The translations under genes were made by a program, and so were the position numbers. The notes beneath the pieces are model-generated. The model made no database searches. It was not told where the DNA came from and saw only the letters and a list, made by a program, of their open reading frames with translations. This document shows positions 6,100 through 60,493 of a stretch of DNA of 64,000 nucleotides, one piece after another. This stretch comes from Candidatus Adlerbacteria bacterium (GTDB lineage: Bacteria > Patescibacteriota > Minisyncoccia > Phycocordibacterales > SBAW01): assembly GCA_903851045.1 (NCBI GenBank), contig CAINNF010000018.1:3925-67924 (forward strand), written 5' to 3'. Positions within the stretch are counted from its first letter, which is position 1; the number at the start of each line of letters is the position of its first letter.

Positions 6100-7587
6100 A
6101 TGAAAAAGGAGGATGAATGGTTAGTTGAGTTTTTTAAACATTTTGAGACGATACTTGCACCAAAGAGGTCAGAACTAAAGGATTGGTCTAAGGCAGCAGA
6201 TTTCCATGTCTTCAGCACGTTCTTAATCAAAGATATTCAAGAAATTCAAGAGTATTTGAAAAATGCCGATGACCAGTATCTTTATTATGTTTGTAGGCAT
6301 ATTTTTAATATTATAGATTGGATCAAACTTATGATTGTTTCTGGTCTTTCAAATTTTGGTATTGCTTTTGAAAACGTTTTTGATAAGCAATTTGGAGATA
6401 AATACATTCTGCAAAATTTGTATGATGCTTGTTTTGAAAAGTGGATTTCTCAAAAGAAAGGGCAATGGAAAATTGGAGAAAATTTTTATAACATTCTCGA
6501 TTGTAAGTTATATTACCGCAACCATTTTGGAGAGTGGTTTGAAGTCGAAAGAAGAACGGCCTTTGACCTTCTACCAGACAAAAAGCTTCTTGAAAACAAT
6601 TATTTAATCGAACAATTGAATAGCGAATGCAAAGAAACTTGGTACGATGCAATAATCAGAAAATGGGAAGATAAAAAATATCAGGGAGTACTACCAGATA
6701 ATTTTTTGAAATTTAATAAGGAAGAAACGAGTCCCGAAGAATATTCTGATTTTACAATTGAGAACATTAAAACATTAATAAAAAATCCGGTATCAATTGC
6801 GGAACTGGAACGCTGGAATAACGGCAAGATTTTGGATATAGAACACATCGTGAAAATAGCTTCTGGTGTATTAGAAATGGTAACAAAAAGGAGAGAAGAT
6901 AATTGTCATACTATATATCTTTTACGAGACTGTCTAGTGTTCTATGAAGTACACAAGACCATTGACCTCTTAAATTCGGAGCAGACTTCCGCTGATCAAA
7001 TATTGATTGGACGAAAATTACTCACACATGAATTAAGAGAATGGGGGTATTATGTAGTAACACTCGAATCTCTTTATATAGCTCATGACCGCTATCCAGA
7101 AAATTTTAGAGATTTCTACAATGAGTATGCAAGACTACTGGATATGTTCGTCTCTTTAAATCCAGGATTCGCAACTATTATATCTAATCTTGCTGAGTAC
7201 ATATCGGAACATATTCAAACAGACACAAATAAAATAGTTGTTTTCGACATAGGATTTCAAGGATCGATAGCACTATTAACAAAGTACATAATAGATCGCC
7301 ATATCAAGTCAAATGCCCCCAACAAAACAATGGAAACAGATGTGAAAATTGGTGTGGGTGCCGAATGGTCTAAGGGTTTGTTTGGAGATAGATATGAGAA
7401 TGACTGTTTTCCATTTCTAAATCGTTTGCAATTAATGGCAAGAAGTGATGAATTATTTCACTATAAACTGGGAAGTCTACATTCAGGTAAACTCCAGATT
7501 GTAATGGGTGATAAAGAATCGCAACATAAAGCTACCGTTGAACTTGTTGTTCTTGTAATGGTGACTCTATTGGCACAGAGTGAGTAA
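6100..7587 (+). CDS. hypothetical protein (island cargo), 495 aa
   Basis: Long clean ORF in the AT-rich island; no motif recognised. Confidence 0.5.
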   Translation: MKKEDEWLVEFFKHFETILAPKRSELKDWSKAADFHVFSTFLIKDIQEIQEYLKNADDQYLYYVCRHIFNIIDWIKLMIVSGLSNFGIAFENVFDKQFGDKYILQNLYDACFEKWISQKKGQWKIGENFYNILDCKLYYRNHFGEWFEVERRTAFDLLPDKKLLENNYLIEQLNSECKETWYDAIIRKWEDKKYQGVLPDNFLKFNKEETSPEEYSDFTIENIKTLIKNPVSIAELERWNNGKILDIEHIVKIASGVLEMVTKRREDNCHTIYLLRDCLVFYEVHKTIDLLNSEQTSADQILIGRKLLTHELREWGYYVVTLESLYIAHDRYPENFRDFYNEYARLLDMFVSLNPGFATIISNLAEYISEHIQTDTNKIVVFDIGFQGSIALLTKYIIDRHIKSNAPNKTMETDVKIGVGAEWSKGLFGDRYENDCFPFLNRLQLMARSDELFHYKLGSLHSGKLQIVMGDKESQHKATVELVVLVMVTLLAQSE

Positions 7588-11917: not shown

Positions 11918-12085
11918 ACGAAGTACAGTAGAACACGCACCAACCGTCATGGATACAAGCTAGGGATTTAATTCCCACTTGTGCCATGACGGTCTGTTTT
12001 TTGTATGTAATACCGTTTAGATATCGAGCAAAAGGACGGATTGGTTACTTGTGACGATGGGGACGAGAGGGTACAATCCCCTCAT

Positions 12086-12170
12086 GCCCTCGTGGCGGAA
12101 TTGGTATACGCGCGTGCCTTAGGAGCACGTTCCGAAAGGATTAGAGGTTCGAGTCCTCTCGGGGGCACCA
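12086..12170 (+). tRNA. tRNA-Leu (TAG), type II, CCA encoded
   Basis: Acceptor GCCCTCG/CGGGGGC, anticodon loop CTTAGGA, long variable arm, T-arm GAGGTTCGAGTCCTC. The listed ORF 12041.. runs through it. Confidence 0.8.
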
Positions 12171-12301
12171 CGGGAAAAATCGGCGAAGAGCCGATTTTTC
12201 CTTTGTCAAAATTTCCTTATATAGAGCCACCGTACGGCTTGACAACAACCTGTTTACTTGTAGAATGCAGACAAACACAGTTCTTTGAAAGGAACATAAG
12301 C

Positions 12302-13768
12302 ATGGACTGGTTCGTGCTAATAAAGAGTACGCTTATCGCGTGGCTGCCTTCAATGCAATGGTTAAAGCAATGGTTTCCTCTTACCGCTCTGGTGGTGGGG
12401 GTCGTATCGTACGTCTTCTACCGCATCGTCTGGGTGCCTTTCTTCAAACAAACCGGCCTCAGCTTGATCCGTTGGAGTACGCTCTGGCAGGGAGCGGTCG
12501 TTGTCGGTTGGTACTACATGGTCGTACAAGCGATCCTGTTGTTTCCACCACTGCTACTGCTGACTGCGCCCGTCGTGGCCTTCTTCGTAGTCTTGTTCCT
12601 CCTTCCTTTTGTCCCAGGGCTGATACGGAAACTGAGTGTCAGCTTTAACCGCGAAACGGGGGATGTAAAGCCGGGGTTCTTCATGTACCCGGAGCAAGGC
12701 CGTATCATCATCATCGAACGAGGGAAGAACTTCTTCAAAGCGATCATGGCTCACGCCGACCACATGTTCAGAGGCGAGAAGCGTAATGCTCTGACTCCAA
12801 ACCAGCCGGAGTATCACGATATCGTACCAACAAGAGAACTTGATGATCCTGTCGTATATCAGGATACACACCCGATTCCTCCGCCCATCAAAAACACCGA
12901 AGAGGTGCTCGCTCGACCTCTGTGGTTGGTGCGGGCACCCTTGAGTGTGCCTTGGTGGGTATGGAAGCGGCATGTATTCGAACTCACCGGAGCGGTCTTT
13001 AGCGGCGTCAAAGGGTATCAGCAGCCGCGAATCTATCCGATCACCAAGATCGTGAAGACAAAGCAACAGGGTGGCAAACACCTCTTCGATGTTGTCGCCT
13101 CGTTCAGCGATCATTTGCGAGCGTCGGTGTTCGAGATTATCATACTAGTCGGTGATGCGAATACCCGGGACCAGTCTGCGGTGTTCGTAGCGGTCAGTCT
13201 CTTCCTCTACACCATCAACCCGTTTCGCGCAGCGTACAGGACCGAGTGGAAATGGCCCGAAAGGATCGACTCACTCGCTACTGGCGTGATCGGCAACTTC
13301 TGCAGATTTCGACCGATGGATGAAGTGCTTGCCGCGAAGGATGAAAAGGGTGCAGGGGCGCTCGCCGAATATCTACGCACAGAGCTTACTGCCCCATTCG
13401 AAGCGATCGGCATCGGATTCCAAGAAGTGGTGCCTGTGAACGTGCTGGATATCAGTCCTACGACTGAAGAGCTGAAGCGACAACTGGAAGCGCTATCAGC
13501 TGCACGGATCCAAAAACTGGCAGATATGGAACTCGCCATCGGTCGAACCGCGTACGCTGAACGTATGGCAAAATTGGCACAAGACAACCCCGAAGCTCTC
13601 GCCTTCGCCGAGATCGACAGTCGAGTAAGTATGTCTGCAAACATGGCGGCCAACCCGAATGCGGTGGTCATCCTGAGTCCTGGCGGAGCCCCACCGGTCG
13701 ATCCTATCGCAGCCGCAACGCTGCGTGGCGTCAATAATCTTGGCACACAACAAAAAGGAAAGAACTGA
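12302..13768 (+). CDS. SPFH/band-7 (flotillin-like) domain membrane protein
   Basis: Start reset to MDWFVLIK downstream of the tRNA; N-terminal TM helices; C-terminal coiled-coil/PHB-like region (KLAQDNPEALAFAEI...). Confidence 0.45.
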   Translation: MDWFVLIKSTLIAWLPSMQWLKQWFPLTALVVGVVSYVFYRIVWVPFFKQTGLSLIRWSTLWQGAVVVGWYYMVVQAILLFPPLLLLTAPVVAFFVVLFLLPFVPGLIRKLSVSFNRETGDVKPGFFMYPEQGRIIIIERGKNFFKAIMAHADHMFRGEKRNALTPNQPEYHDIVPTRELDDPVVYQDTHPIPPPIKNTEEVLARPLWLVRAPLSVPWWVWKRHVFELTGAVFSGVKGYQQPRIYPITKIVKTKQQGGKHLFDVVASFSDHLRASVFEIIILVGDANTRDQSAVFVAVSLFLYTINPFRAAYRTEWKWPERIDSLATGVIGNFCRFRPMDEVLAAKDEKGAGALAEYLRTELTAPFEAIGIGFQEVVPVNVLDISPTTEELKRQLEALSAARIQKLADMELAIGRTAYAERMAKLAQDNPEALAFAEIDSRVSMSANMAANPNAVVILSPGGAPPVDPIAAATLRGVNNLGTQQKGKN

Positions 13769-14643
13769 TGAATGCGTGGCTTGCAGTAGCAGTCGTCTGC
13801 ACCATAGTAATGTTTTTCTTCGTTCTGTGGCTTGCATCCGACTCTTCAGCCACACCTACGCAACAGAACCCGGCCCCACAGCCGGGAAGGGGGCAACAAT
13901 TCCTCGCACAGATAATCCCTTCGTGGAAATTCGTGAAGGGCGCTCTCATTGCTGTCGCCGGTGTCGTCTTGCTGCTCGTCCTGTTCTTGTTCGGTACGGT
14001 CGTCCTGACCACGGCGTCTGACGCTTTTGATTGGGACATCTGGCACAAGCTCTGGATGCGTCGACTTGGCTCTATACCGTGGTGGTGGCACGTTCTTGCG
14101 GCTGCTTCACTGGTAGTGAGCTTGTGTGCTTGGGTCTGGGGCCAGTGGTGGCTGCGCTCGAAGACGAAACGCTTCTGTCGCTGGGCTATCACCCTGGTGC
14201 TGCCGGCATATGCCATCATCTGTGTGGTGTATGCATCAGGCGGTAATCTGGACGCGGTCGGCACGTTCGCATGGCGACTGTGGCACCTGGACCCGTACGA
14301 TGTTCGTGAGTGGTTCTCAATGCTTCAGATGCCTTCGTTCCCAACGGACATCCCGATCATGGGTTGGGCTTCGATCGTCGCCACGACGGTCGGACTCATC
14401 TCGTGGTTCGGGTCGCAGAAAAAGCGTCGATGGTTGGCTCCCGTGGCGGCTCTCCTAGCGGGTGTCGCCACCCTCTTCCTGCTGAGCATCGACCCTTCAG
14501 ACTTCACGCAGGCGAGCTTCAGGCACATCACCAATGACCTGCTCAATTGGCTGCACACATTCCCTGTTTGGGGGCAGATCTGCGGCCTTGCGGTTGCAAC
14601 CATCGGTCTCGTGTTGACCCTGAAGACACTTGGGAGCAAATGA
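13768..14643 (+). CDS. polytopic membrane protein, Trp-rich, unknown function
   Basis: Multiple hydrophobic segments; stop overlaps next start (ATGATG). Confidence 0.5.
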   Translation: MNAWLAVAVVCTIVMFFFVLWLASDSSATPTQQNPAPQPGRGQQFLAQIIPSWKFVKGALIAVAGVVLLLVLFLFGTVVLTTASDAFDWDIWHKLWMRRLGSIPWWWHVLAAASLVVSLCAWVWGQWWLRSKTKRFCRWAITLVLPAYAIICVVYASGGNLDAVGTFAWRLWHLDPYDVREWFSMLQMPSFPTDIPIMGWASIVATTVGLISWFGSQKKRRWLAPVAALLAGVATLFLLSIDPSDFTQASFRHITNDLLNWLHTFPVWGQICGLAVATIGLVLTLKTLGSK

Positions 14644-15254
14644 TGGGGAAGAAAAGCCTACTCGTTGGTTTGGCTCTACTGTGTGGCATAGCGGCTGCGG
14701 CATGGGGATATTCACTCTTTACCATACCGCAATCCACGCTGAACCTCAGCCCATATCAGGTCTTCGTTGGTGCGGTCGTGGTGCCGATCGTGGCGGTCTG
14801 GAACTTTCTGGCGGCAGCACCGTTCGCTGCAGAGATGCTCGTGCTACTGCTGGCCTTGATCAGCGTCAGTCTGTGGCGGCGAAAGGAGTGGGAGGGGTGG
14901 TTTGTGTTGGCCGTCGGCGTGGCGTTCGTCATGTTGTGGGCTCACCACAACCCCACGACCGTCGCGACGCTCACCTCGTACTGGGAGTTGGGGCCGGCAC
15001 GTCCACAGCCGTCCAACTTCTACTGCGCCAGTACACAGTCGGTGGTGGCCACCCCCACTACGTGGACTTACGTTGACAACGGATCCTGCCGCTTGGATAT
15101 CACCGGCTTTAGTGGTTATCTCTCGTTCATGACTCGTGATGGGAGTATCTACAGACACATCAGCGAAGCGGGTCTCAACGGGGTGAACCAGGTCATGTGG
15201 ATCAAAAGTGATGACGGATACACACACCGGGTTTCCATTCAAAAGTTTCCCTAA
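14640..15254 (+). CDS. membrane protein with extracytoplasmic C-terminal domain
   Basis: In-frame ATG at 14640 overlapping the upstream stop (MMGKKSLLVGLALL...). Confidence 0.5.
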   Translation: MMGKKSLLVGLALLCGIAAAAWGYSLFTIPQSTLNLSPYQVFVGAVVVPIVAVWNFLAAAPFAAEMLVLLLALISVSLWRRKEWEGWFVLAVGVAFVMLWAHHNPTTVATLTSYWELGPARPQPSNFYCASTQSVVATPTTWTYVDNGSCRLDITGFSGYLSFMTRDGSIYRHISEAGLNGVNQVMWIKSDDGYTHRVSIQKFP

Positions 15255-15326
15255 GACAGCGGTCTTGTGGGAAGAACAAAAACGGCGAGCCCCACTCAGG
15301 GCTCGCCGTTCTCTTTTTGCATCTTC

Positions 15327-15686
15327 TTAATGGAAAAACGCCACGACCGTTCCCGCTATCATATTCATGATCGCAGTCGACGCGGTGACGATGAACAGTC
15401 CCGCGAGTCCATATAGCATATGTTTCTGCCCCTCTGGGGACGGCTTGCCGTCTCTCAATTGCCATAGGTATTCAACGATGCCTAAGACGAACACCAATAC
15501 CGAGGCGCCAAGCAGAACATCGACGACCGGATACAATAGCTGCTTCTCAAGATTTTGTATGATGGGGCACACGTCTGAGCCAGCAGTACATTGCAAGTTT
15601 GCGAACTGAGCGAAGGCGATCGAGGGTGCGAACAGCAAGCCGAGCGATCCGCCGACCACGAACCTATATCGATCGATATATCTCAT
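15327..15686 (-). CDS. TrbC/VirB2-like 'T4SS pilin'-family small membrane protein, paralog 1
   Basis: Signal peptide plus two TM helices; shares architecture with the three upstream paralogs. Confidence 0.5.
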   Translation of the reverse strand: MRYIDRYRFVVGGSLGLLFAPSIAFAQFANLQCTAGSDVCPIIQNLEKQLLYPVVDVLLGASVLVFVLGIVEYLWQLRDGKPSPEGQKHMLYGLAGLFIVTASTAIMNMIAGTVVAFFH

Positions 15687-15726
15687 ACCATGTGCGTCCT
15701 TTATATCGAGCGGATAAACGAGCTCC

Positions 15727-16065
15727 TTAGTTCGTTGGGAAGTGCGGCGCGGGTACGTTTTGTGTCCCGGTCACACCGAGAGCGTTCTGCGCAAGTGCGA
15801 TGATGCCCCAGATCGACACCATGATGAAAAGTGCGACGATACCGTTGATCATGATCTTTCTGCCGGCTTCCTTCTCAGGCTGTCGAATGTAGGTGATGAG
15901 TCCCCAGAAGAACGCGAGCATCGCGATGCCGATACAGATAGGTATGAGGAGTGCCACCAGGTTACCGATCGAGACGATAAGGGTTTGGATCGGGCCAAGC
16001 GTTTGAGCCGACGCAAAGAACGGGAGTGCCAAAAACGACGAGGTGATGAGCGCGAATTTTTTCAT
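15727..16065 (-). CDS. TrbC/VirB2-like 'T4SS pilin'-family small membrane protein, paralog 2
   Basis: MKKFALITSSFLALPFFASAQ signal, then a two-helix pilin-like core. Confidence 0.55.
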   Translation of the reverse strand: MKKFALITSSFLALPFFASAQTLGPIQTLIVSIGNLVALLIPICIGIAMLAFFWGLITYIRQPEKEAGRKIMINGIVALFIMVSIWGIIALAQNALGVTGTQNVPAPHFPTN

Positions 16066-16184
16066 ACGAAAGAAGTGGCTAAGATAATTTTTAATGGTAT
16101 ACGACCAGTGTAGCAGTCGTGCCCATCCTCACAATAGCCCTGTGTGGATAGCCTGGTCGACATGCACAAAAGCCTTACCCAACA

Positions 16185-16445
16185 TTAACTGCCGAACACG
16201 CCGATACGCATAACCGCGAGGATGCCGCTCAGCGAAAAAATGATGAAAAGTCCGATCAGCCCCCACTTGATCAGCTCCTTCCCGTCCTGTTGTCCCTTCG
16301 AGCCAGCGCTGCGGCTTATATAAAGCACCATACCGAACATGAAAACGGTAATGGCCGTGCCCGAAAGAAGCCACACAAGCAGTTGCATCACCATCAGGAC
16401 GGAATGGACGACGGTCACAAAGGTGGCGCTGGTGTTTCCTGTCAT
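16185..16445 (-). CDS. TrbC/VirB2-like pilin-family protein, paralog 3 (short)
   Basis: Two TM helices flanking a GSKGQQDGKEL loop, as in the paralogs. Confidence 0.45.
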   Translation of the reverse strand: MTGNTSATFVTVVHSVLMVMQLLVWLLSGTAITVFMFGMVLYISRSAGSKGQQDGKELIKWGLIGLFIIFSLSGILAVMRIGVFGS

Positions 16446-16450
16446 ATCGG

Positions 16451-16843
16451 CTAACTACAGGAGGACGCGCTCCCGGCGTTCTGTGGAGAGATATTCTTAA
16501 TCGTGTTCGCTATCACCTGTCCCAAGAACCACGCGGCCATAAAAATAAGGATACCGAGTAGCACGTTCACAAGATTCTCTTTAGCCCTCGCTATGTCTCC
16601 CGGATTGCCGCGTGCGGAAATGAACTTAAAGCCAGCCCATACGAGAAACCCTGCCGCTATAGGGCCACCAACCGACAGCACAAAGCCAAGGATTAGTTTC
16701 ATGAGGCCACAGATCGAGTTTGCCGCAAGCGGATTCGCTATCGTGAACCCGGTCCCAGGGTCGTTAGCGGTCGTGACCCCAAGAGCGATCATGGGAGTAC
16801 ACAGCAGAGCGAACAAGAAAAGATGTCGTGCGAAGGCCTTCAT
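16451..16843 (-). CDS. TrbC/VirB2-like 'T4SS pilin'-family small membrane protein, paralog 4
   Basis: ARGNPGDIARAKENLVNVLLGILIFMAAWFLGQVIANTI aligns with ARGNSEGIARARENLWKVVIGVVLFMSSWLLGVTIVNTI of 60185..60493. Confidence 0.65.
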   Translation of the reverse strand: MKAFARHLFLFALLCTPMIALGVTTANDPGTGFTIANPLAANSICGLMKLILGFVLSVGGPIAAGFLVWAGFKFISARGNPGDIARAKENLVNVLLGILIFMAAWFLGQVIANTIKNISPQNAGSASSCS

Positions 16844-18171
16844 GATGATGCGTGAAGCGAGTTGGTGTGGAGGAGTGTTTGCAGGACCTGGTATGCGTCG
16901 AATATCGCCTGTGCCGGACTCTCCGAACTACTCATCACCGATTCTATCATATTCTCGAAGACGGTGTTCGTCTTCGACGCGTCCGGATCGAGCCACCCAC
17001 GTGAGATAAGTGCCGAGGACGCGAAAACGCTTTTAGCGGCGTCCTTCGACGTATCCATCTGCACATCACGCCGCACGGGGGGTAGTCCCGTACCCGCGAC
17101 AATCGTAGCTATCCCCGTTTGACTCGAGAGCTTTTCGGCAGCAAGGAGCGCACCTGTCGGGTTCGTGCTCGTCCGAGGTATGGCGAGTCCGGTCAACTCT
17201 CCAAATGTCATCTTGACCCCAGTACCCTGGACCTGTGGTACCTGGGCGACACCGAAACGAAGGTTCGGATTGCGAGCTTGTATGGTCGCATAGTCGCTTG
17301 CCAGACCAAAATAGATCGCCAAAGTCCCAGCGACGAACGCATCTTGCGACAATGGGAGCGAGCGGTTCCAGGAGTAGGTCGTCTTCGCCGGGTTCGCGAA
17401 CTCGGTATAGAACTGCAGTGCCGACGAGGCCGGATTTTCGGTCGTGTTCGGGTCCGAACTTACTATCGTGCCCAGTACCGGTGTCGGCGTGCCCGCACCG
17501 TTTCGCACGACGATAGGGTCGCCAGCTTGCATGAACAGCGTCGACAGTATCTCTTTCGCATGAAGTACGTTGGTCCAGCTTCCCATCGCTACGGCGGCTC
17601 GCGTGATGTTCGAACTACCATCAAGCTGCGTGAGCTTCGGCGCACTTTCGAGGAAATCGTTCCAGTATTGCGGCGGGTTCGCGTATCCTGCGCTTGAAAG
17701 AAGGTCACGATTATAGTACATCACCAACGGGTCGATCGTGAACGGGAGTGCAAATGCCCCGTCGGTAGTAAGGAATAGCTGCGCTTCATCTATATAGGAG
17801 TCGGTGAACACCTGCTGCGAGATCGCACTATAGGGAATGACCCCGATCTTGTCGGAGAAAGCGGTGATCTGGTCCTGAGAGATCACGAACAGGTCAGGCC
17901 CGTTACCGCTCGCCATGGCATCGATGATATCCGCTATGTAGGTCGAAGCGTCCTTCTGGACGTAGGATACTCCTTGCAAGGAACCATCCTTCTCGCGAAG
18001 AGACGTGAGCGCCGGTTCGACGACACTTGCGTCCATGGTACCCCAGACGGTGACCTTACCGATCTGCGCACTGCTTTTGACCCCGCCGTAGGTAGCGAAC
18101 GCGCCGATACCGACGAGTATCAAAGCGGCGAATATGCCGAGCGAAGCAATCTGAAATATGGACATTTTCAT
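16840..18171 (-). CDS. extracellular solute-binding protein (ABC transporter SBP family 1-like)
   Basis: Listed ORF begins at a GTG (18243); preferred start is ATG 18171 (MKMSIFQIASLGIF... signal anchor). Long periplasmic-binding-like body. Confidence 0.5.
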   Translation of the reverse strand: MKMSIFQIASLGIFAALILVGIGAFATYGGVKSSAQIGKVTVWGTMDASVVEPALTSLREKDGSLQGVSYVQKDASTYIADIIDAMASGNGPDLFVISQDQITAFSDKIGVIPYSAISQQVFTDSYIDEAQLFLTTDGAFALPFTIDPLVMYYNRDLLSSAGYANPPQYWNDFLESAPKLTQLDGSSNITRAAVAMGSWTNVLHAKEILSTLFMQAGDPIVVRNGAGTPTPVLGTIVSSDPNTTENPASSALQFYTEFANPAKTTYSWNRSLPLSQDAFVAGTLAIYFGLASDYATIQARNPNLRFGVAQVPQVQGTGVKMTFGELTGLAIPRTSTNPTGALLAAEKLSSQTGIATIVAGTGLPPVRRDVQMDTSKDAAKSVFASSALISRGWLDPDASKTNTVFENMIESVMSSSESPAQAIFDAYQVLQTLLHTNSLHASS

Positions 18172-18187
18172 AGTATTTCCATGATAC

Positions 18188-18745
18188 TTAATGCATCGTT
18201 GGTCGAACCTTCTTGCGAACGACGAACCCCCAATGATATTCACCTGCGGGAATATCCTGTACGTATTCGAGCGCTACTTTTTCGAACAGGTCTCGTGCGG
18301 TACCGACCGTGAGCACGTGGTCGGGGTGTGGCCCAAGCCCCCCGAACGAATCGCGCCAGTCGATGACCACCCCGCGCCCGCCCGGACGCAGTATTCGTTC
18401 GACCTCATGTGCCGCCGCAACCCGGTCCTCCAGTGCGAACAAAAGGTTCGAGACGATGGCCACATCGAACGTATCGTCGGAGAGATGACTCCCCTTCTTC
18501 GCCTCGACATCTCCGCGCACGATCTCCACGTTGTGGAGACCTTCGGCACGCGACAGGTTGTGGATCCTGGTCAGAAGGTCCGGATTCACGTCGACGGCCC
18601 ACACCACCCCAGTGGGACCGACCATACGCGCAGCCGTGCGCGTAAAAAAGCCCGAACCCGCGCCAAGGTCGGCGACATGCATCCCCTCATGCAGTCCGAC
18701 CGCATCAAGCGCTTTCGCTGGCTGTAAGAACGAACTTTCTTCCAT
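18188..18745 (-). CDS. class I SAM-dependent methyltransferase
   Basis: VADLGAGSGFF motif I; VVWAVDVNPDLL. Confidence 0.7.
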   Translation of the reverse strand: MEESSFLQPAKALDAVGLHEGMHVADLGAGSGFFTRTAARMVGPTGVVWAVDVNPDLLTRIHNLSRAEGLHNVEIVRGDVEAKKGSHLSDDTFDVAIVSNLLFALEDRVAAAHEVERILRPGGRGVVIDWRDSFGGLGPHPDHVLTVGTARDLFEKVALEYVQDIPAGEYHWGFVVRKKVRPTMH

Positions 18746-23869: not shown

Positions 23870-24251
23870 AAATTCTACTAGGATTTATACGGCAGAGCCC
23901 GATGAGGTAATCAAAAGGCTCCCAGCCATTGCGATAGCGCCTTTCGGCAACTACCCATACCCGTTTCCAGATATGACCTAGTAGAGTGACTCTGACTGGG
24001 AGTCCTTTGATCTCTACTAGGTTTTGCAACCATATCCTGAGAATTTGACTTCTTAGGGGTTAGGTCGGCTTGTATTCAATTGTTTGTACCAAGGGGTACA
24101 AGAACAATGATAACATTTTGAGTTATCACTTGGCCACCTTAGCTTAGCTTTGGAGGCTTGCGAAGGAGGTTACCAACAGAGATATGCGCCATCTCTGGCC
24201 TCAATTTGAGCTCACTAATCTATGCGAATGTTTTACTCCCACGAGTGAGTA

Positions 24252-24519: not shown

Positions 24520-24702
24520 TTATTGGGACGATGTATTGTCAGTTGGAGCGACCGTCTGCGTCGACGTGCCTCCGCCTTGCATGAACCAATAGATGCCGCC
24601 CAACACAATGACCACGATTACGACGATGGCTATGATGGTTGATGTCTTCATAACGTTTTTCAAATTACTTATAGTTGTTAATAGAGTGAACAAAACATTC
24701 AT
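24520..24702 (-). CDS. small single-pass membrane protein
   Basis: IIAIVVIVVIVLGGIYWF TM; stop/start abuts upstream gene. Confidence 0.35.
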   Translation of the reverse strand: MNVLFTLLTTISNLKNVMKTSTIIAIVVIVVIVLGGIYWFMQGGGTSTQTVAPTDNTSSQ

Positions 24703-26963
24703 TGATTGAGCGCTGCTCGCGTTGTGGGGCCGACATACCCAACTCGGCTTATACCATGCGCTCCCTGGAATTGATCAACCGCCGCCTGCGTGAGGGAACC
24801 GAAGTATCCGGTGATTGGGCCAGAATATACGCCGAGAGTAGTAAGCCGTTTCTGCAATTCTGTGACATCGTTTCCAGTCGAACCGACGCTAAGGAAATTA
24901 TTGAAGACAAAGCCGTCGTCAGCCGTAGTGGTGGTTGTACTACTGCTTTGCGCGCTATTAAGCGCCGCCCTCGTTGCCGGACCCACGACTCCCAGCTGCT
25001 GAATACCATGCGCGGCTTGAAATGCTACGACAGCAGCTTCAGTGAGAGAACCGTAATAGCCGGTTGCTGCTGCAGACAAATATCCATCTTTAATTAATAT
25101 ATTCTGGAGCGCAGTTACTTCACTACTTGTGAGCCCCGGATAAAGATAGTCGGTAATGACCGCGGAGGAAGACGTGGTTGTGACATTCTGCGACCCTGCG
25201 GCGACCACAAGAGTGGTTTGCGCGCTCGCAAGGTGGCTGTATGGATCAGTTGCCGTGACGGTTATTGTATGAGTTCCTGCGTCTGCATTGGTCGGTGTCC
25301 AAGAGAAATACCCCGACGAGTTGATGTCCGCATTCGTAATGCTTGAGCCGCCGAAAGAATCCTGCAAGGTATAGGAGGGCGAAGTAAAACCGTAAGCATA
25401 CGAGCTGAAGACGACCGTCGTGCCCGGCGCGACAGAAGAACTCGGCGTTGGAGCGGTGAGCGCCACCGAAACCCCGGAATTGACGCTTACGGTAATCGAG
25501 GTGTTGGCGCTATGCCCCGCGCTGTCGGTCGCATAGACGGTAATAATGTGCGATCCGGATTGATTGGTCGCAGGAGTCCATGTGAAATATCCTGACGCAT
25601 TGATGTTCGAGTTGGTAATCGTCGTACCGCTGAAAGAATCGCTAAGCGTGTAGGTTGGATTTACGAAACCAGCTTGCGACATGGTGAACGAGAGCGGGCT
25701 ATTGGGCGCGACAACCGTGCCTGGCGTGATTGAGGTAATGGTGATGTTTGGAGTCTGTACGGTAAGTGCGAGCGTGGTATTGCCGCTATGTCCCGAAGGA
25801 TCATTTACGTAGATAGTTAAGTTGTGTGTGCCGACTTGGCTTGAGTCTGGCGTCCATGTGAAGTAGCCGGCGGTATTGATGCTGGAATTGGAAATATTGC
25901 TGCCACCGAAGGAATCAGAAATGCTGAATACGGGGCTGGAGAAGCCCGAAGCCGCTACCGTAAAGGTGACGGGATTGCCGACGACTACCGTGGAGCCCGG
26001 CGAAAGTCCTTGAATAGACGCACCCGAGCCTCCAACAGTAATTGTTTGGCTTGCCGTCGCCGTGTGACCGGAACCATCGGACGCTGTCACGGTAATGGCA
26101 TGCGTGCCGACATCGCTGCTCGAAGGCATCCAAGAAAGGTTGCCTGATGAATTTATATTATTGCTTGAAAGAGTCGTCCCACTGAATGAGTCGCTTATCG
26201 AATATGAAGGACTCGAAAAACCCGAAGCCGCGGCTGTAAGAGTAAGCGTCTGTCCCACGTTAACACTTGAGCCTGGGGATAGGGACTGAATGACAAGCGT
26301 GGGCGCGGCACTTACAGTTATTTGTTCGGTCACGCTCGCGCTGTTCTGCGCATCATGCACCGTGACTGTTATGGTGTGCGTTCCTGCATCTTGTGTTGCC
26401 GGAACCCAGCTGAAGTTGCCCGATGAGTTGATATCTCCATTGACCACGGTCGAGCCGCTAAGGGAATCGTTCACGGAGTAGGTCGGGTTGGTAAAGCCCG
26501 ATGCCGCAACCGTAAAGGAAACCGTTTGCCCGATGGTAACTGCGGAGCTCGGCGAAAGGGATTGGATCGATACCGATGGCGCAGCGCTCACGGTCAGTGT
26601 TTCGGTCGTCGTAGCGCTATCGCCTGAAGAATCATTGACGGCAATGGAAAGATTGTGCGTACCGACATCATTCGAGTTCGGCGTCCATGAAAAGTTCCCG
26701 GACGAATTGATGTTTCCGCTGCCGACGCTGCTGCCGGATACCGAGTCGCTGATGCTGTAGATAGGGTTGGAAAAACCGGAGTTCGACACAGTAAACGAAA
26801 CATTAGTACCGACTGTGACACTAGTACTTGGAGAAAGAGACTGGATTGAAACGGAAACGCTCGCGTATGCAAACGCGAGCGGTACCGTCAAGAATCCCAG
26901 CGCAAACAGAACTTGTGCGAAGCGTTGTACCATTGTGTGCGAAGATTTCATGATGCTATCCAT
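24699..26963 (-). CDS. large secreted surface protein: ~8 tandem ~90-aa Ig-like repeats + two C-terminal peptidoglycan-binding domains
   Basis: Repeats of SIQSLSPS..VGQTVSFTVAASGF..PTYS..DS.SGSTV..INSSGNFSWTP...GTHTITV; C-terminal LTEAAVVAFQAAHGIQQLGVVGPATRAALN twice (PG_binding_1-like). Confidence 0.7.
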   Translation of the reverse strand: MDSIMKSSHTMVQRFAQVLFALGFLTVPLAFAYASVSVSIQSLSPSTSVTVGTNVSFTVSNSGFSNPIYSISDSVSGSSVGSGNINSSGNFSWTPNSNDVGTHNLSIAVNDSSGDSATTTETLTVSAAPSVSIQSLSPSSAVTIGQTVSFTVAASGFTNPTYSVNDSLSGSTVVNGDINSSGNFSWVPATQDAGTHTITVTVHDAQNSASVTEQITVSAAPTLVIQSLSPGSSVNVGQTLTLTAAASGFSSPSYSISDSFSGTTLSSNNINSSGNLSWMPSSSDVGTHAITVTASDGSGHTATASQTITVGGSGASIQGLSPGSTVVVGNPVTFTVAASGFSSPVFSISDSFGGSNISNSSINTAGYFTWTPDSSQVGTHNLTIYVNDPSGHSGNTTLALTVQTPNITITSITPGTVVAPNSPLSFTMSQAGFVNPTYTLSDSFSGTTITNSNINASGYFTWTPATNQSGSHIITVYATDSAGHSANTSITVSVNSGVSVALTAPTPSSSVAPGTTVVFSSYAYGFTSPSYTLQDSFGGSSITNADINSSGYFSWTPTNADAGTHTITVTATDPYSHLASAQTTLVVAAGSQNVTTTSSSAVITDYLYPGLTSSEVTALQNILIKDGYLSAAATGYYGSLTEAAVVAFQAAHGIQQLGVVGPATRAALNSAQSSSTTTTTADDGFVFNNFLSVGSTGNDVTELQKRLTTLGVYSGPITGYFGSLTQAAVDQFQGAHGISRVGYVGPTTRAALNQ

Positions 26964-30198: not shown

Positions 30199-31530
30199 AT
30201 GGAACAAATAGCAACAAGGCCCGGTTTGGGAGACACAAGGAGGCAACCCATAGCCCAGCCAGTACGAGTTAGATATTGCCTCTATGCAAGAAAGAGTACC
30301 GAGTCAGAAGAAAGACAGGTCCTTTCTATCGATTCGCAGATCAAGGAGATGCTCCAGTTGGCCGACCGTGAGGGGCTGGAGATAGTCGAATTGAAACGAG
30401 AGAGTCACTCGGCAAAAGAGACTGGGCAGCGACCTGTTTTTAACGAAATAGTAGATGAGCTAAAAGCTGGCAAATATAACGGCATACTCACGTGGGCACC
30501 AGATCGTATTAGCCGCAATGCTGGAGATCTTGGAAAGATAGTAGACCTGATGGATGCGGGGACACTTCAGGAAATACGTACTCATAGTCAAAGTTTTAGG
30601 AATAACCCCAACGAAAAGTTCCTTCTGATGATTCTCGGGTCGCAAGCGAAGCTCGAAAACGATAACCGAGGCGTAAATGTTAAGCGTGGGCTACGGACAC
30701 GCTGCGAAATGGGCCTTAGGCCGGGGGTTGCCCCAGTGGGATATTCAAATGAGAAACACGCCGACCGTAAATGTCACGCGGTTATCGACGAACTGCGCGC
30801 ACCCGTAATCAAGCAAATGTTTGAGAAAGTGGCGAACGAGCAATGGAGTGGCAGGAAATTGTACCAATGGCTGAAATTCGACCTCAACTTCAAAAGTAGG
30901 GCAAACAAAAACATGACGTTGAGTAGTGTCTACGTGGTACTTCAAAACCCCTTCTACTATGGCGTATTCGAGTATCCAGAAAAGAGCGGCAACTGGTACG
31001 ACGGCAAACATCAACCTCTTATCACCAAGGAGCTGTTCGATAAAGCGCAGGAGCAACTCAAACGAGACCGCATCCTGCGCTCCGATATTAAGGAGTTTGC
31101 CTTTATTAAGCTCATGTTATGTGGGGCTTGCGGCTCGGGCATTACAGCGGAGGAGAAGTTTAAGAAACTAAAGGACGGCACCTCAAACCGCTACGTGTAC
31201 TACGGCTGCACCCGTGCGAGGGACAAGGACTGCAAGAACGGTTACGTACGGGAGGAAGAGTTGATTACTCAGACGGTCAAAATTATGGACCACATCGACC
31301 TCAACAACATCAGCATGCGGGAAAAATTCGAGGCAGAGGTAGACCGTATGCGAAAGTTTCAACGCGCATTCACTGCCACGACAACGGATGCAAAACCGCA
31401 AAAAGAAATCGACCTGCGCGGCTACGCTAAGTATTTACTCAAGGAAGGGAGTGTGACGGAGAAGCGCGAGTTGCTGCTCTGTATTAAGAGCAAGTTGGTA
31501 CTCGACAAGGGAACTCTGAGATTGGAGTAG
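30199..31530 (+). CDS. large serine recombinase (resolvase/invertase N-domain + recombinase + zinc-ribbon)
   Basis: VRYCLYARKSTESEERQVLSIDSQ (catalytic Ser region), ...WAPDRISRN; C-terminal CGACGS...YYGCTRAR zinc ribbon. Confidence 0.85.
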   Translation: MEQIATRPGLGDTRRQPIAQPVRVRYCLYARKSTESEERQVLSIDSQIKEMLQLADREGLEIVELKRESHSAKETGQRPVFNEIVDELKAGKYNGILTWAPDRISRNAGDLGKIVDLMDAGTLQEIRTHSQSFRNNPNEKFLLMILGSQAKLENDNRGVNVKRGLRTRCEMGLRPGVAPVGYSNEKHADRKCHAVIDELRAPVIKQMFEKVANEQWSGRKLYQWLKFDLNFKSRANKNMTLSSVYVVLQNPFYYGVFEYPEKSGNWYDGKHQPLITKELFDKAQEQLKRDRILRSDIKEFAFIKLMLCGACGSGITAEEKFKKLKDGTSNRYVYYGCTRARDKDCKNGYVREEELITQTVKIMDHIDLNNISMREKFEAEVDRMRKFQRAFTATTTDAKPQKEIDLRGYAKYLLKEGSVTEKRELLLCIKSKLVLDKGTLRLE

Positions 31531-32776: not shown

Positions 32777-32907
32777 TCCTAAACATTACTCCTGCCAGCA
32801 AAAAAGTTCGAATCCGCTTAGGGTTCGAACTTTTTTGTCTTTACTCATTTTTTATAGCCCCTTGTTTTATAGGGCACGCGGTCGCGAGACACGCATGCCC
32901 GTTCCTG

Positions 32908-32992
32908 CGGAGGCGGAGAGATTCGAACTCTCGAACCCTTGCGGATTGCCGCCTTTCCAAGGCGGTGCACTCGACCACTATGCGACGCCTCC
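32908..32992 (-). tRNA. tRNA-Ser (GGA), type II
   Basis: Reverse complement GGAGGCG..., anticodon stem CCGCC/GGCGG, loop TTGGAAA, long variable arm, T-arm GAGAG-TTCGAAT-CTCTC, acceptor CGCCTCC. Confidence 0.8.
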
Positions 32993-59255: not shown

Positions 59256-60188
59256 ATGAGTTACGATCTAGCGATTATTGGCGGCGGGCCGGCGGGTGTT
59301 GCTGCGGGAGTGTATGCTGCTCGCAAGCGTCTGAAAACAGTGTTTATCGCCGAGGCCATTGGCGGTCAAAGCATCGACTCGACTGGGATAGAGAACTGGA
59401 TCGGCACCGAGAAGATCTCGGGACTGGACTTGGCTAAGTCGCTCGAGCGACACCTGCGCGCCTACGCGGGCGACATTGTCGATCTGCGGATTGGCGAACG
59501 TGCGAATACGGTCACTAAGGCGAGCCAAGGATTCGCGGTCACGACGACCAAAGGCTCGTATGACGCCAAGACGGTGCTCGTCGTGACCGGAGGCTCGCGC
59601 CGCAAGCTCACCATCCCCGGCGCGGCAGAGTTCGAGAACAAGGGTGTCACCTACTGCGCATCGTGCGACGGCCCGCTCTTCGCGGGCCAGGATGTCGTCG
59701 TCGTCGGTAGCGGTAACGCGGGCTTTGAGAGCGCCGCCCAACTTCTCGCCTATACCAAGTCGGTCACGCTTCTCAACCGGAGTGCCGATTTCAAAAAAGC
59801 GGACGCATCGACCGTGAGCGCGGTTCTTGCACATCCGAACATGACCGCACTTTCGAACACGATACCTGTCGAGATCAAAGGAAACGGCTTTGTGAGCAGC
59901 GTTGTCATCCAAAATTCTGTCACGAACGAGACGAAAGAGATCCCCGCCGCGGGCGTCTTTGTGGAAATCGGCATGGTGCCCGCAACCGACTTTGTCAAAG
60001 ACCTTGTAGAGCGCGACCCGTGGGGCAAGGTTAAGGTAGATGGCAAGAGCCAGCGCACCTCACAGCCGGGCATCTGGTCTGCCGGAGACTGCTCCGACGC
60101 GCTGTATCATCAAAACAACATCGCCGCAGGCGACGCCGTCAAGGCGCTTGAGGACATCTATTTGTATATAAAATCGCTCCCTGCCTAG
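59256..60188 (+). CDS. trxB: thioredoxin-disulfide reductase
   Basis: IIGGGPAGVAAGVYAAR FAD motif; redox CASCDG; VVVVGSGNAGFESA NADPH motif. Confidence 0.85.
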   Translation: MSYDLAIIGGGPAGVAAGVYAARKRLKTVFIAEAIGGQSIDSTGIENWIGTEKISGLDLAKSLERHLRAYAGDIVDLRIGERANTVTKASQGFAVTTTKGSYDAKTVLVVTGGSRRKLTIPGAAEFENKGVTYCASCDGPLFAGQDVVVVGSGNAGFESAAQLLAYTKSVTLLNRSADFKKADASTVSAVLAHPNMTALSNTIPVEIKGNGFVSSVVIQNSVTNETKEIPAAGVFVEIGMVPATDFVKDLVERDPWGKVKVDGKSQRTSQPGIWSAGDCSDALYHQNNIAAGDAVKALEDIYLYIKSLPA

Positions 60189-60493
60189 CAGGACGGCGTC
60201 CCAGGGAAGATCCCCGGAATGATCTGACTAATAGTGTTCACGATAGTGACACCAAGGAGCCACGAGCTCATGAACAGCACGACACCTATCACCACCTTCC
60301 ACAAGTTTTCGCGCGCTCGCGCGATCCCTTCACTGTTACCACGCGCTTTTACCAACAAAAAACCAGCAATAATAAGCCAGAGGGCAGCTATGGGCGTGCC
60401 AATAAGATACACCCCACCAATAAACCCTTTTATCATACAGAAAATACCCGTCTGGGTAAGCGGATCATGCAGAGTGAAACTCACGCCATTCAC
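60185..60493 (-). CDS. TrbC/VirB2-like 'T4SS pilin'-family small membrane protein (5th copy)
   Basis: Aligns with 16451..16843 across ARGN..GIARA.ENL..V.G..LFM..W.LG..I.NTI. Confidence 0.6.
   Translation of the reverse strand: MNGVSFTLHDPLTQTGIFCMIKGFIGGVYLIGTPIAALWLIIAGFLLVKARGNSEGIARARENLWKVVIGVVLFMSSWLLGVTIVNTISQIIPGIFPGTPSC

What the first reader, a model, noticed from the sequence alone, without database searches (positions are those of the whole stretch)
15327..16843. Four tandem paralogous TrbC/VirB2-like 'T4SS pilin' genes, with a fifth copy at 60185-60493
Four adjacent small genes on the minus strand encode signal-peptide plus two-helix membrane proteins. Two of them (16451..16843 and the distant 60185..60493) align over ARGN..GIARA.ENL..V.G..LFM..W.LG..I.NTI; the others keep the architecture but have diverged. 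This matches the small pilin family that, to my knowledge, is abundant in CPR/Patescibacteria and related to conjugative VirB2/TrbC pilins. The cluster sits beside an SPFH protein, two Trp-rich polytopic membrane proteins and a solute-binding protein, but no VirB4/VirB6/ATPase is visible in the window. What appendage these pilins build is unknown, and an episymbiont attachment or DNA-uptake structure is possible.
Basis: partly seen in the sequence, partly recalled or inferred. Interest (0 to 1): 0.6.

Follow-up and report, generated by a model that had tools for sequence, protein, structure and literature searches.

The report
Solute-binding-protein-coupled VirB2-like pilin operon
The five small genes are real members of the VirB2-like "T4SS pilin" family of ultrasmall Patescibacteria, a known kind of gene array, but here they form an ancient four-subunit set fused into one operon with a sugar-type binding protein, a link I did not find described.

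Summary
Five ORFs (D 16451-16843, C 16185-16445, B 15727-16065, A 15327-15686, E 60185-60493, all minus strand) encode two-helix hairpin membrane proteins. Their best Pfam match is PF18895 T4SS_pilin or TrbC/VirB2; only D passes the curated cut-off. HMMs built without window sequences recover exactly these five among 475 window ORFs.

The genome is a Paceibacteria (Parcubacteria) relative of Adlerbacteria. Tandem arrays of divergent VirB2-like pilins in Patescibacteria are already published (Wang 2023; Quinonero-Coronel 2025), so the finding as written is a known kind.

- The four genes are four ancient types kept in fixed order 1-2-3-4 across the class, not recent duplicates. E is a type-1 duplicate.
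- The array overlaps by ATGA the stop of a membrane-anchored MalE-like solute-binding protein. That link is near-obligate in both directions (75/82 pilin-seeded loci; 67/70 binding-protein-seeded loci).
- No VirB4-like ATPase lies in the window, nor as a recurrent neighbour within about 10 kb in relatives.

C and E lack signal peptides. The function is inferred: a heteromeric surface or membrane structure, probably served by a T4SS encoded elsewhere.

The parts
18188..18745 (-). Class I SAM-dependent methyltransferase (185 aa), first conserved gene of the module
   Evidence: Pfam Methyltransf_31/25/11, E 1e-15 to 1e-18. A homologue sits directly upstream of the binding protein on the same strand in 71/82 pilin-seeded loci and 39/62 binding-protein-seeded loci. 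Only 16 nt separate it from the binding-protein start.
16840..18171 (-). Membrane-anchored MalE-like (family 1) solute-binding protein, 443 aa; N-terminal helix 5-28 with no lipobox Cys
   Evidence: Pfam SBP_bac_8 6e-20 and SBP_bac_1 5e-19. AlphaFold2 pLDDT 91. Foldseek top hits are sugar-binding proteins: 5ci5, T. maritima MalE2, Atu4361, UgpB (E 1e-20 to 1e-22, TM 0.66-0.79). Its stop overlaps the D start as ATGA. It is present immediately upstream of the array in 75/82 loci.
16451..16843 (-). Pilin D, type 1 (130 aa): signal peptide, NPL..C motif, helix 44-76, basic loop ARGN, helix 81-118, C-terminal Cys
   Evidence: PF18895 44.8 bits (cut-off 26.6), TrbC 22.7 bits. AF2 helical hairpin, core pLDDT about 90. 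Independent position-1 HMM E 1.5e-36.
16185..16445 (-). Pilin C, type 2 (86 aa): two helices, no signal peptide
   Evidence: PF18895 22.4 bits, E 1.3e-4. Position-2 HMM E 5.7e-20. Hydrophobic segments 5-45 and 57-86.
15727..16065 (-). Pilin B, type 3 (112 aa): signal peptide MKK...ASA|Q plus two helices; the most conserved subunit
   Evidence: PF18895 21.9 bits, E 1.8e-4. Position-3 HMM E 5.5e-41. 79% identical to its orthologue in L008. Preceded by a 119-nt spacer.
15327..15686 (-). Pilin A, type 4 (119 aa): lineage-specific N-terminal extension with a signal-like segment and two Cys, then two helices
   Evidence: TrbC 17.8 and PF18895 15.9 bits, both below cut-off. Position-4 HMM E 5.2e-23. 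Most type-4 orthologues are about 90 aa without a signal peptide.
15281..15310 (.). GC-rich 12-bp-stem hairpin flanked by T/A runs: bidirectional intrinsic terminator closing the pilin operon and the convergent membrane-protein operon
   Evidence: Terminator scan and sequence.
60185..60493 (-). Pilin E (102 aa): dispersed duplicate of type 1, without signal peptide, just downstream of tRNA-Glu and overlapping the trxB stop
   Evidence: PF18895 25.0 bits. 44% identical to D. Position-1 HMM E 5.6e-27, and its best cross-genome hit is a position-1 gene. Context.
12302..15254 (+). Convergent operon of three fast-evolving membrane proteins: SPFH-like about 488 aa, Trp-rich polytopic 291 aa, and 204 aa. 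Their association with the array is uncertain.
   Evidence: Syntenic in close relatives but only 30-39% identical where the pilins and binding protein are 61-79%. Counterparts in more distant relatives hit Band_7. The window proteins themselves have no family hits.

Best explanation
Shown: the locus is a chromosomal operon of a Paceibacteria (Parcubacteria, Adlerbacteria-like) genome. It reads methyltransferase, membrane-anchored MalE-like solute-binding protein, then four VirB2-like (PF18895 T4SS_pilin) two-helix proteins of four ancient types in fixed order 1-2-3-4 (D-C-B-A). An intrinsic terminator closes it. A dispersed type-1 duplicate (E) lies 44 kb away.

Inferred: the proteins are inserted by Sec, and D, B and A lose a signal peptide. 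Each adopts an N-out/C-out hairpin with a conserved basic cytoplasmic loop. Together they form a heteromeric structure at the cell surface. By homology with VirB2/TrbC pilins, and with the essential pilin array of Southlakia epibionticum, that structure is most likely a short pilus or conduit. It would be extracted from the membrane pool by a VirB4/VirB3/VirB6 machine encoded elsewhere in the genome, and used in contact with, or uptake from, a host cell. B (type 3) or D (type 1) would be the major subunit and the others minor subunits. The co-translated binding protein probably works at the same site, capturing a host-derived saccharide or similar ligand, or acting as an adhesin.
For: Family: Pfam hits; NCBIfam pilin-like ICE protein NF045849 at 30.9 bits for D; all listed homologues carry PF18895, many with PF04956, and some are named 'pilin'; 66,402 representative clusters match at E<=1e-3.

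Fold and topology: signal helix plus a hairpin of helices 44-76 and 81-118. The loop residues A70 G71 F72 G79 are invariant while the termini vary.

Four fixed types: the best cross-genome hit falls on the same array position in 87/93 cases. The order string 1234 occurs in 30 loci, and expansions keep the order.

Purifying selection: pilins are 61-79% identical to L008 orthologues, against 75% for the binding protein.

Operon: ATGA overlap, short gaps, terminator. Linkage to the binding protein holds in 75/82 loci and reciprocally in 67/70.

Host: all 80 related loci are Patescibacteria, and GyrA is 79-83% identical to Adler-/Nomura-/Parcubacteria MAGs.

Literature: pilin arrays are essential and lie inside the T4SS cluster in S. 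epibionticum (PMC10633639). 441 arrays were found in 383 assemblies, and 1,948 assemblies carry both VirB2-like pilins and VirB4 (PMC12102498). T4SS pilins are among the highly expressed genes of unknown function in cultured Paceibacterales (PMC10936435).
Against: No VirB4, VirB6, VirD4 or any P-loop ATPase other than IF-2 is in the 64-kb window. No VirB4-like family is among the 25 families shown of the 75 found in large proteins within about 10 kb of the array in 80 relatives.

C and E lack signal peptides. Family members exist as single polypeptides of 3-8 fused hairpins, which fits poorly with one-by-one extraction of subunits into a pilus. No filament made of these proteins has been seen in any Patescibacterium, as far as the papers read here report.
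Confidence: 0.55

Rival explanations
1. The four hairpin proteins never leave the membrane. They form a hetero-oligomeric channel or docking platform for the co-translated solute-binding protein: a T4SS-independent, binding-protein-dependent uptake or sensing device built from exapted VirB2-like proteins.
For: Near-obligate, bidirectional linkage with the binding protein and the ATGA overlap. No recurrent VirB4 within about 10 kb in relatives. No ABC permease or ATPase next to this binding protein. Four fixed subunit types suggest a defined stoichiometric complex. Poly-hairpin fusions of 3-8 units and type1+type2 fusions exist. Types 2 and 4 lack signal peptides.
Against: No known transporter is built this way, and no energy-coupling component is evident. 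The family is homologous to VirB2/TrbC, and in Saccharimonadia it sits inside an essential T4SS cluster (PMC10633639). No binding-protein/pilin fusion protein was found. A separate ABC_tran + BPD_transp_1 pair exists 7-8 kb beyond the left end of the window and could be the binding protein's real partner.
Confidence: 0.25
2. The array is a set of interchangeable major pilins kept for antigenic or host-range variation, as suggested for Patescibacteria by analogy with Bartonella and Anaplasma VirB2 paralogues (PMC12102498).
For: Low identity between paralogues (16-31%), matching the published 25% average. Lineage-specific duplications of types 1 and 3 (strings 11334, 112334). The extra copy E.
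Against: Positions are orthologous across the class (87/93 on the diagonal). Order is fixed. Subunits differ in architecture, with or without a signal peptide. They evolve no faster than the binding protein. This is the opposite of a rapidly turning-over variation cassette.
Confidence: 0.1
3. The ORFs are unrelated small hydrophobic peptides or chance ORFs, and the Pfam similarity is only compositional.
For: Four of five Pfam scores are below the gathering threshold. Structure searches are non-specific.
Against: Independent HMMs give E 1e-20 to 1e-41 and hit nothing else in the window. The genes are conserved in order and sequence in more than 150 loci from two collections. Gene callers predict them in other assemblies.
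Confidence: 0.01

Closest known systems
VirB2-like pilin arrays of Patescibacteria (Southlakia epibionticum SEML1 T4SS cluster, Wang et al. 2023, PMC10633639; survey by Quinonero-Coronel et al. 2025, PMC12102498)
   Same: Same Pfam family (PF18895/PF04956). Tandem arrays of 2-11 sequence-divergent, structurally similar hairpin proteins, about 25% identity within an array. Chromosomal, in a monoderm ultrasmall bacterium.
   Different: Here the array is not in a T4SS cluster. It is fused into an operon with a MalE-like binding protein and a methyltransferase next to gyrA. The four members are fixed orthologous types across a whole class, which argues against the 'variation' reading offered in the survey.
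VirB2/TrbC/TraA conjugative pilins of diderm T4SS (T-pilus, RP4, F pilus)
   Same: Small size, usually a long signal peptide, two hydrophobic helices joined by a short basic loop, weak TrbC profile similarity (D 22.7 bits).
   Different: Below the TrbC cut-off. No adjacent VirB3-B11. Monoderm host. No evidence of cyclisation or of a filament. Solved pilins are not retrieved by fold or sequence search.
Mbov_0395 family pilin-like conjugal transfer protein of Mycoplasma ICEs (NCBIfam NF045849)
   Same: Best NCBIfam hit for D (30.9 bits), E (20.7) and C (14.3). A VirB2-like protein in a wall-less or monoderm MPF-FATA-type system.
   Different: Below the 40-bit cut-off. Those are single genes inside ICE conjugation modules.
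MalE/UgpB-type substrate-binding proteins of carbohydrate ABC importers
   Same: Fold of the upstream protein (Foldseek E 1e-20 to 1e-22) and Pfam SBP_bac_1/8.
   Different: No adjacent permease or ATPase. It is followed instead, almost without exception, by the pilin array.
Sulfolobus bindosome (Bas system): sugar-binding proteins assembled at the surface by a pilin-like machinery. Recalled from my own knowledge, not checked here.
   Same: Conceptual parallel: binding proteins functionally tied to small pilin-like membrane proteins.
   Different: Those use type IV (class III signal) pilin-like proteins with a dedicated ATPase and membrane protein. There is no homology to VirB2-like hairpins.

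Membership tests
Pfam PF18895 T4SS_pilin | HMM score at or above the gathering threshold (26.6 bits) | tested here: met
   D 44.8 bits. E 25.0, C 22.4, B 21.9 and A 15.9 are individually below the threshold, but the family is their first or second hit. They are tied to D-type proteins by lineage HMMs (A, B and C against the position-1 HMM at about 1e-7; D against the position-2 HMM at 2e-11).
Pfam PF18895 T4SS_pilin | Two hydrophobic helices joined by a short polar/basic loop in a protein of about 80-150 aa | tested here: met
   Hydropathy for all five. AF2 model of D: helices 44-76 and 81-118, loop 77-80.
Functional VirB2/TrbC T4SS major pilin | Score at or above the PF04956 TrbC gathering threshold (27.9 bits) | tested here: not met
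   D 22.7, A 17.8, E 12.3 bits. Many D-type homologues elsewhere do carry a precomputed PF04956 hit.
Functional VirB2/TrbC T4SS major pilin | Encoded with VirB4 and other mating-pair-formation genes | tested here: not met
   There is none in the window or in the 10 kb beyond either end. No VirB4-type family is among the 25 families shown for large proteins near the array in 80 related loci.
Functional VirB2/TrbC T4SS major pilin | A VirB4/VirB3/VirB6 machine present somewhere in the same genome | not testable with these tools
   Only the window and 10-kb flanks could be read. The literature reports VirB4 in most Patescibacteria genomes (2,474 genes in 3,035 genomes; PMC12102498).
Functional VirB2/TrbC T4SS major pilin | Structural match to solved conjugative pilins; polymerisation into a lipid-containing filament | tested here: inconclusive
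Functional VirB2/TrbC T4SS major pilin | Cleavable N-terminal signal peptide | tested here: inconclusive
   Signal-like segments with AxA motifs are present in A, B and D, and absent from C and E. No dedicated predictor was available.
Patescibacterial VirB2-like pilin array (as defined in PMC12102498) | Two or more tandem VirB2-like genes with low mutual identity in a Patescibacteria genome | tested here: met
   Four tandem genes at 16-31% identity. Host assignment.
Type IV (T4P) pilins | Class III signal peptide (G|F/M-x-x-x-E) and a single N-terminal helix | tested here: not met
   No such motif appears in any of the five sequences, and all have two transmembrane helices.
Binding-protein-dependent ABC importer operon | Binding-protein gene adjacent to permease (BPD_transp_1) and ABC ATPase genes | tested here: not met
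   Binding-protein fold confirmed. The neighbours are a methyltransferase and the pilins. No permease or ATPase cluster recurs near it in relatives. The nearest ABC pair lies about 24 kb away, outside the window.
SPFH/Band 7 (claim about the neighbour at about 12302-13768) | Pfam PF01145 hit at or above 23.6 bits | tested here: inconclusive
   The window protein has no hit even at E<=5. Syntenic convergent genes in relatives score 19-32 bits, three of ten above the cut-off, and 10/78 large neighbours hit Band_7.

The most novel reading that the evidence does not exclude
The binding protein plus the four fixed VirB2-like subunits make up a dedicated, previously undescribed surface apparatus of Paceibacteria. 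It would be either a binding-protein-decorated short filament or a membrane complex that captures host-derived saccharides or anchors the cell to host glycans. It would have been exapted from conjugative pilins and be genetically uncoupled from the T4SS, possibly independent of it.
Probability: 0.25. Interest if true: 0.7.

Novelty: new variant of a known kind. Interest (0 to 1): 0.4.

Why it matters
Patescibacteria make up a large share of bacterial diversity and depend on host cells, yet how they take material from hosts is unknown. Their T4SS and its unusual pilin arrays are essential in the one genetically tractable species, with no known function.

If the same pilin family in the largest class (Paceibacteria) is hard-wired to a sugar-type binding protein in a four-subunit operon, that gives a concrete handle. 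The binding protein's ligand can be screened in vitro. The four subunits can be looked for in surface fractions or tomograms of the cultured relative Minisyncoccus. Co-occurrence with virB4 can be scored across closed genomes.

It also argues against reading these arrays as mere antigenic-variation cassettes.

As a bare observation ('tandem T4SS pilin paralogues in a CPR genome') the finding is ordinary and already published.

Tried and rejected
- Single-sequence and profile searches of PDB sequences for D found nothing relevant.
- I looked for binding-protein/pilin fusion proteins as a Rosetta stone and found none. Large pilin-HMM hits in loci are pilin domains with other extensions or tandem pilin domains. 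The 557-aa binding-protein hit P0260 is an internal duplication.
- Iterative HMM from the window's SPFH-like protein did not expand beyond 4 loci. The SPFH question was settled only indirectly through Pfam on syntenic genes.
- Exact-protein look-up of the DUF2207 gene failed, and the 689-aa ORF was found only on one 4-kb contig. That part of the window therefore could not be annotated from other assemblies.
- A search for E-like singletons next to trxB/ftsZ in relatives found no such genes in the loci held.
- A conserved Cys pair in D/E, as a possible disulfide mimic of pilin cyclisation, is not general. Of 86 type-1 proteins, 24 have both Cys, 21 the N-terminal one only, 3 the C-terminal one only, and 38 neither.
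- The type IV pilin and recent-tandem-duplication readings were rejected.
- Whether the genome encodes VirB4 could not be determined with the tools available.
Full report
**The observation**

- Each has two long hydrophobic segments separated by a short polar, basic loop.
- A, B and D also have an N-terminal signal-like segment ending in AFA|Q or ASA|Q.
- C and E do not, and their ORFs cannot be extended upstream.
- D and E are 44% identical (E 9e-26).
- A, B and C are 28-31% identical to each other. They relate to D/E only at profile level.

**Family**

Against Pfam, D hits PF18895 T4SS_pilin at 44.8 bits (cut-off 26.6) and TrbC/VirB2 at 22.7. E, C and B have PF18895 as top hit at 25.0, 22.4 and 21.9 bits. 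A hits TrbC at 17.8 and PF18895 at 15.9. NCBIfam's nearest model is the Mycoplasma ICE 'pilin-like conjugal transfer protein'.

A profile of D-type proteins recovers:
- 296 proteins at E<=1e-5 in the word-indexed database. All 120 listed carry PF18895, many also PF04956, and some are named 'pilin' or 'TrbC/VirB2 family protein' by NCBI.
- 66,402 representative clusters at E<=1e-3 in the exhaustive search.

To exclude circularity I built four HMMs from other genomes only. Among 475 six-frame ORFs of the window they hit exactly these five, at E 1e-20 to 1e-41. There is no sixth copy.

**Organism**

All 80 loci returned from the species-representative genomes are Patescibacteria: Adler-, Kaiser-, Nomura-, Zambryski-, Ryan-, Yonath-, Wolfe-, Campbell- and Niyogibacteria, and 'Paceibacterota'. 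The window's GyrA is 79-83% identical to Adler-, Nomura- and Parcubacteria MAGs. The same DNA occurs in several metagenome assemblies, on contigs up to 255-265 kb.

**What the array really is**

In those 80 loci nearly every D-type gene heads an array of 4-7 pilin-like genes. Size 4 occurs in 36 loci, 5 in 16, 6 in 10.

- The positions are orthologous. For genes in four-gene arrays, the best hit in another genome falls on the same position in 87 of 93 cases.
- Typed with the position HMMs, the commonest order is 1234 (30 loci). Larger arrays such as 11334 and 112334 keep the order and duplicate mainly types 1 and 3.
- Types differ in architecture. Types 1 and 3 carry signal peptides; types 2 and 4 usually do not.
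- Against the nearest relative (L008) the pilins are 61-79% identical. The binding protein is 75% and the methyltransferase 83%.

So D-C-B-A are four ancient, differentiated subunits under purifying selection, not recent duplicates. E is a dispersed duplicate of type 1.

**The operon**

D's ATG overlaps the stop of the upstream gene as ATGA. That gene encodes a 443-aa protein with an N-terminal membrane helix and a MalE-like family 1 solute-binding fold. Evidence: Pfam 6e-20; AF2 pLDDT 91; Foldseek E 1e-20 to 1e-22 to sugar- and glycerol-3-phosphate-binding proteins.

A 185-aa class I methyltransferase lies 16 nt further upstream. A 12-bp GC-rich hairpin at 15281-15310 terminates the array and the convergent operon.

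The linkage is general:
- A binding-protein orthologue sits directly upstream, on the same strand, in 75 of 82 pilin-seeded loci. The methyltransferase is present in 71.
- Starting instead from the binding protein in an independent collection, 67 of 70 loci with enough downstream sequence have a pilin ORF starting within 150 nt of its stop. Order 1234 is again the commonest.
- No ABC permease or ATPase recurs nearby.
- I found no mention of this linkage in the papers searched. 'Solute' occurs 0 times in PMC12102498.

**Wider context**

In relatives the order is gyrA - methyltransferase - binding protein - pilins, then convergent rbfA/infB. In the window, gyrA (46001-48487) is about 27 kb from the methyltransferase. 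The interval carries mobile-element-type genes.

Convergent to the array are three fast-evolving membrane proteins, 30-39% identical to L008. The largest has no family hit itself, but its positional counterparts in relatives hit Band_7/SPFH.

**T4SS link**

The window contains no VirB4, VirB6 or VirD4. Its only P-loop ORF of 200 aa or more is IF-2, and the 10 kb beyond each end adds none. Among 78 large proteins near the array in relatives, no VirB4-type family is in the 25 families shown out of 75 found; only two PilB-like T2SSE proteins appear. Whether this genome has a T4SS elsewhere could not be tested.

The literature says:
- Most Patescibacteria encode VirB4, usually near dnaA.
- 1,948 assemblies have both VirB4 and VirB2-like pilins, with the pilin near virB4 in 1,135 of them.
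- 441 arrays of 2-11 pilins were catalogued (PMC12102498).
- In S. epibionticum the array lies inside the T4SS cluster and is essential (PMC10633639).
- The function of the system is called unknown (PMC11665869).
- T4SS pilins are among the highly expressed genes of unknown function in cultured Paceibacterales (PMC10936435).

**Structure**

The invariant residues cluster at the end of helix 1 and the ARGN loop. The loop is net basic and the termini are variable. P0003 even carries a TNTGSPAP repeat after its signal peptide. This fits an N-out/C-out topology with exposed termini.

**Mechanism**

Most likely (about 0.55), the four proteins form a heteromeric VirB2-type surface structure assembled by a T4SS encoded elsewhere, with the binding protein acting at the same site.

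The main rival (about 0.25) is a T4SS-independent membrane complex that serves the binding protein. It is favoured by:
- the obligate linkage to the binding protein;
- the absence of nearby virB4;
- the fixed four-type composition;
- natural polypeptides of 3-8 fused hairpins, and type1+type2 fusions.

The published 'variation' idea (about 0.1) is disfavoured by positional orthology and purifying selection.

**Verdict**

As stated, the finding is a known kind. The follow-up reveals a class-wide, binding-protein-coupled, four-type variant that I did not find described. Interest is moderate.

Noticed in passing
window 23933-24066 (-): A LOOT RNA (Rfam RF03000) match at 72.5 bits (gathering score 46.4), full length. 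It lies inside the inserted region, between a 199-aa ORF and the 754-aa Ig-like/PG_binding surface protein.
   Followed up: no
window about 19600-46000: About 27 kb separates the methyltransferase from gyrA, which are adjacent in 58 related loci. The interval holds a ParB-DNA methyltransferase (phrog_498), a weak small-terminase-like ORF, an ECF-type sigma factor, a large serine integrase (30199-31530) next to tRNA-Ser (32907-32992), DUF4238, DUF2207 and low-GC stretches. It looks like one or more integrated mobile elements or remnants. The 689-aa ORF 33476-35545 was found on only one other small contig.
   Followed up: partly
window 6100-7587 (+): A 495-aa ORF in a sharply low-GC stretch (34% against about 54%), just after tRNA-Cys and tRNA-Leu. 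It has no Pfam or NCBIfam hit and is probably foreign DNA.
   Followed up: no
P0121-P0131, P0138, P0166; L054:7917-8945: Database proteins consist of 3-8 tandem T4SS_pilin hairpin domains in one polypeptide (for example P0121, 820 aa, 8 domains; P0122, 555 aa, one signal peptide plus 6 hairpins). There are also type1+type2 fusions. This is hard to reconcile with subunit-by-subunit pilus assembly.
   Followed up: partly
window 16451-16843 and 60185-60493; A2/A3 alignments: D, E and their close relatives share a Cys just before helix 1 and a Cys at the extreme C-terminus. Both are predicted to be outside the membrane, so a disulfide could tie the two termini. The pair is confined to a sub-lineage (24 of 86 type-1 proteins have both; the C-terminal Cys almost never occurs alone).
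   Followed up: partly
window 12041-13768 (+) and tRNA-Leu 12086-12170 (+): The long ORF, and the 558-aa gene call made in some assemblies, overlaps tRNA-Leu(tag) on the same strand. The real start of the SPFH-like gene is probably the Met at 12302, giving the 488-aa call seen in another assembly.
   Followed up: no
window 13768-15254 (+): Two polytopic membrane proteins are unusually rich in Trp (7.6% and 4.3%) and evolve much faster than their neighbours: 36-39% identity to the nearest relative, against 75% for the binding protein. This may reflect host-interface proteins under diversifying pressure.
   Followed up: no
window 24699-26963 (-); L005:14807-16075: A 754-aa surface protein has Cadherin-like, He_PIG, Big_9 and PKD Ig-like repeats and two C-terminal PG_binding_1 domains. 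A shorter paralogue lies just outside the left end of the window. Similar PG-binding and Ig-fold proteins are reported as highly expressed in cultured Paceibacterales.
   Followed up: no
L055:2289-3599, L041:7832-9340, L052:1924-3405, L079:3999-5279: Some relatives have 420-500-aa proteins with one T4SS_pilin hairpin plus a large extra domain, either before or after the hairpin. The exposed termini of type-1 subunits can apparently carry cargo domains.
   Followed up: no
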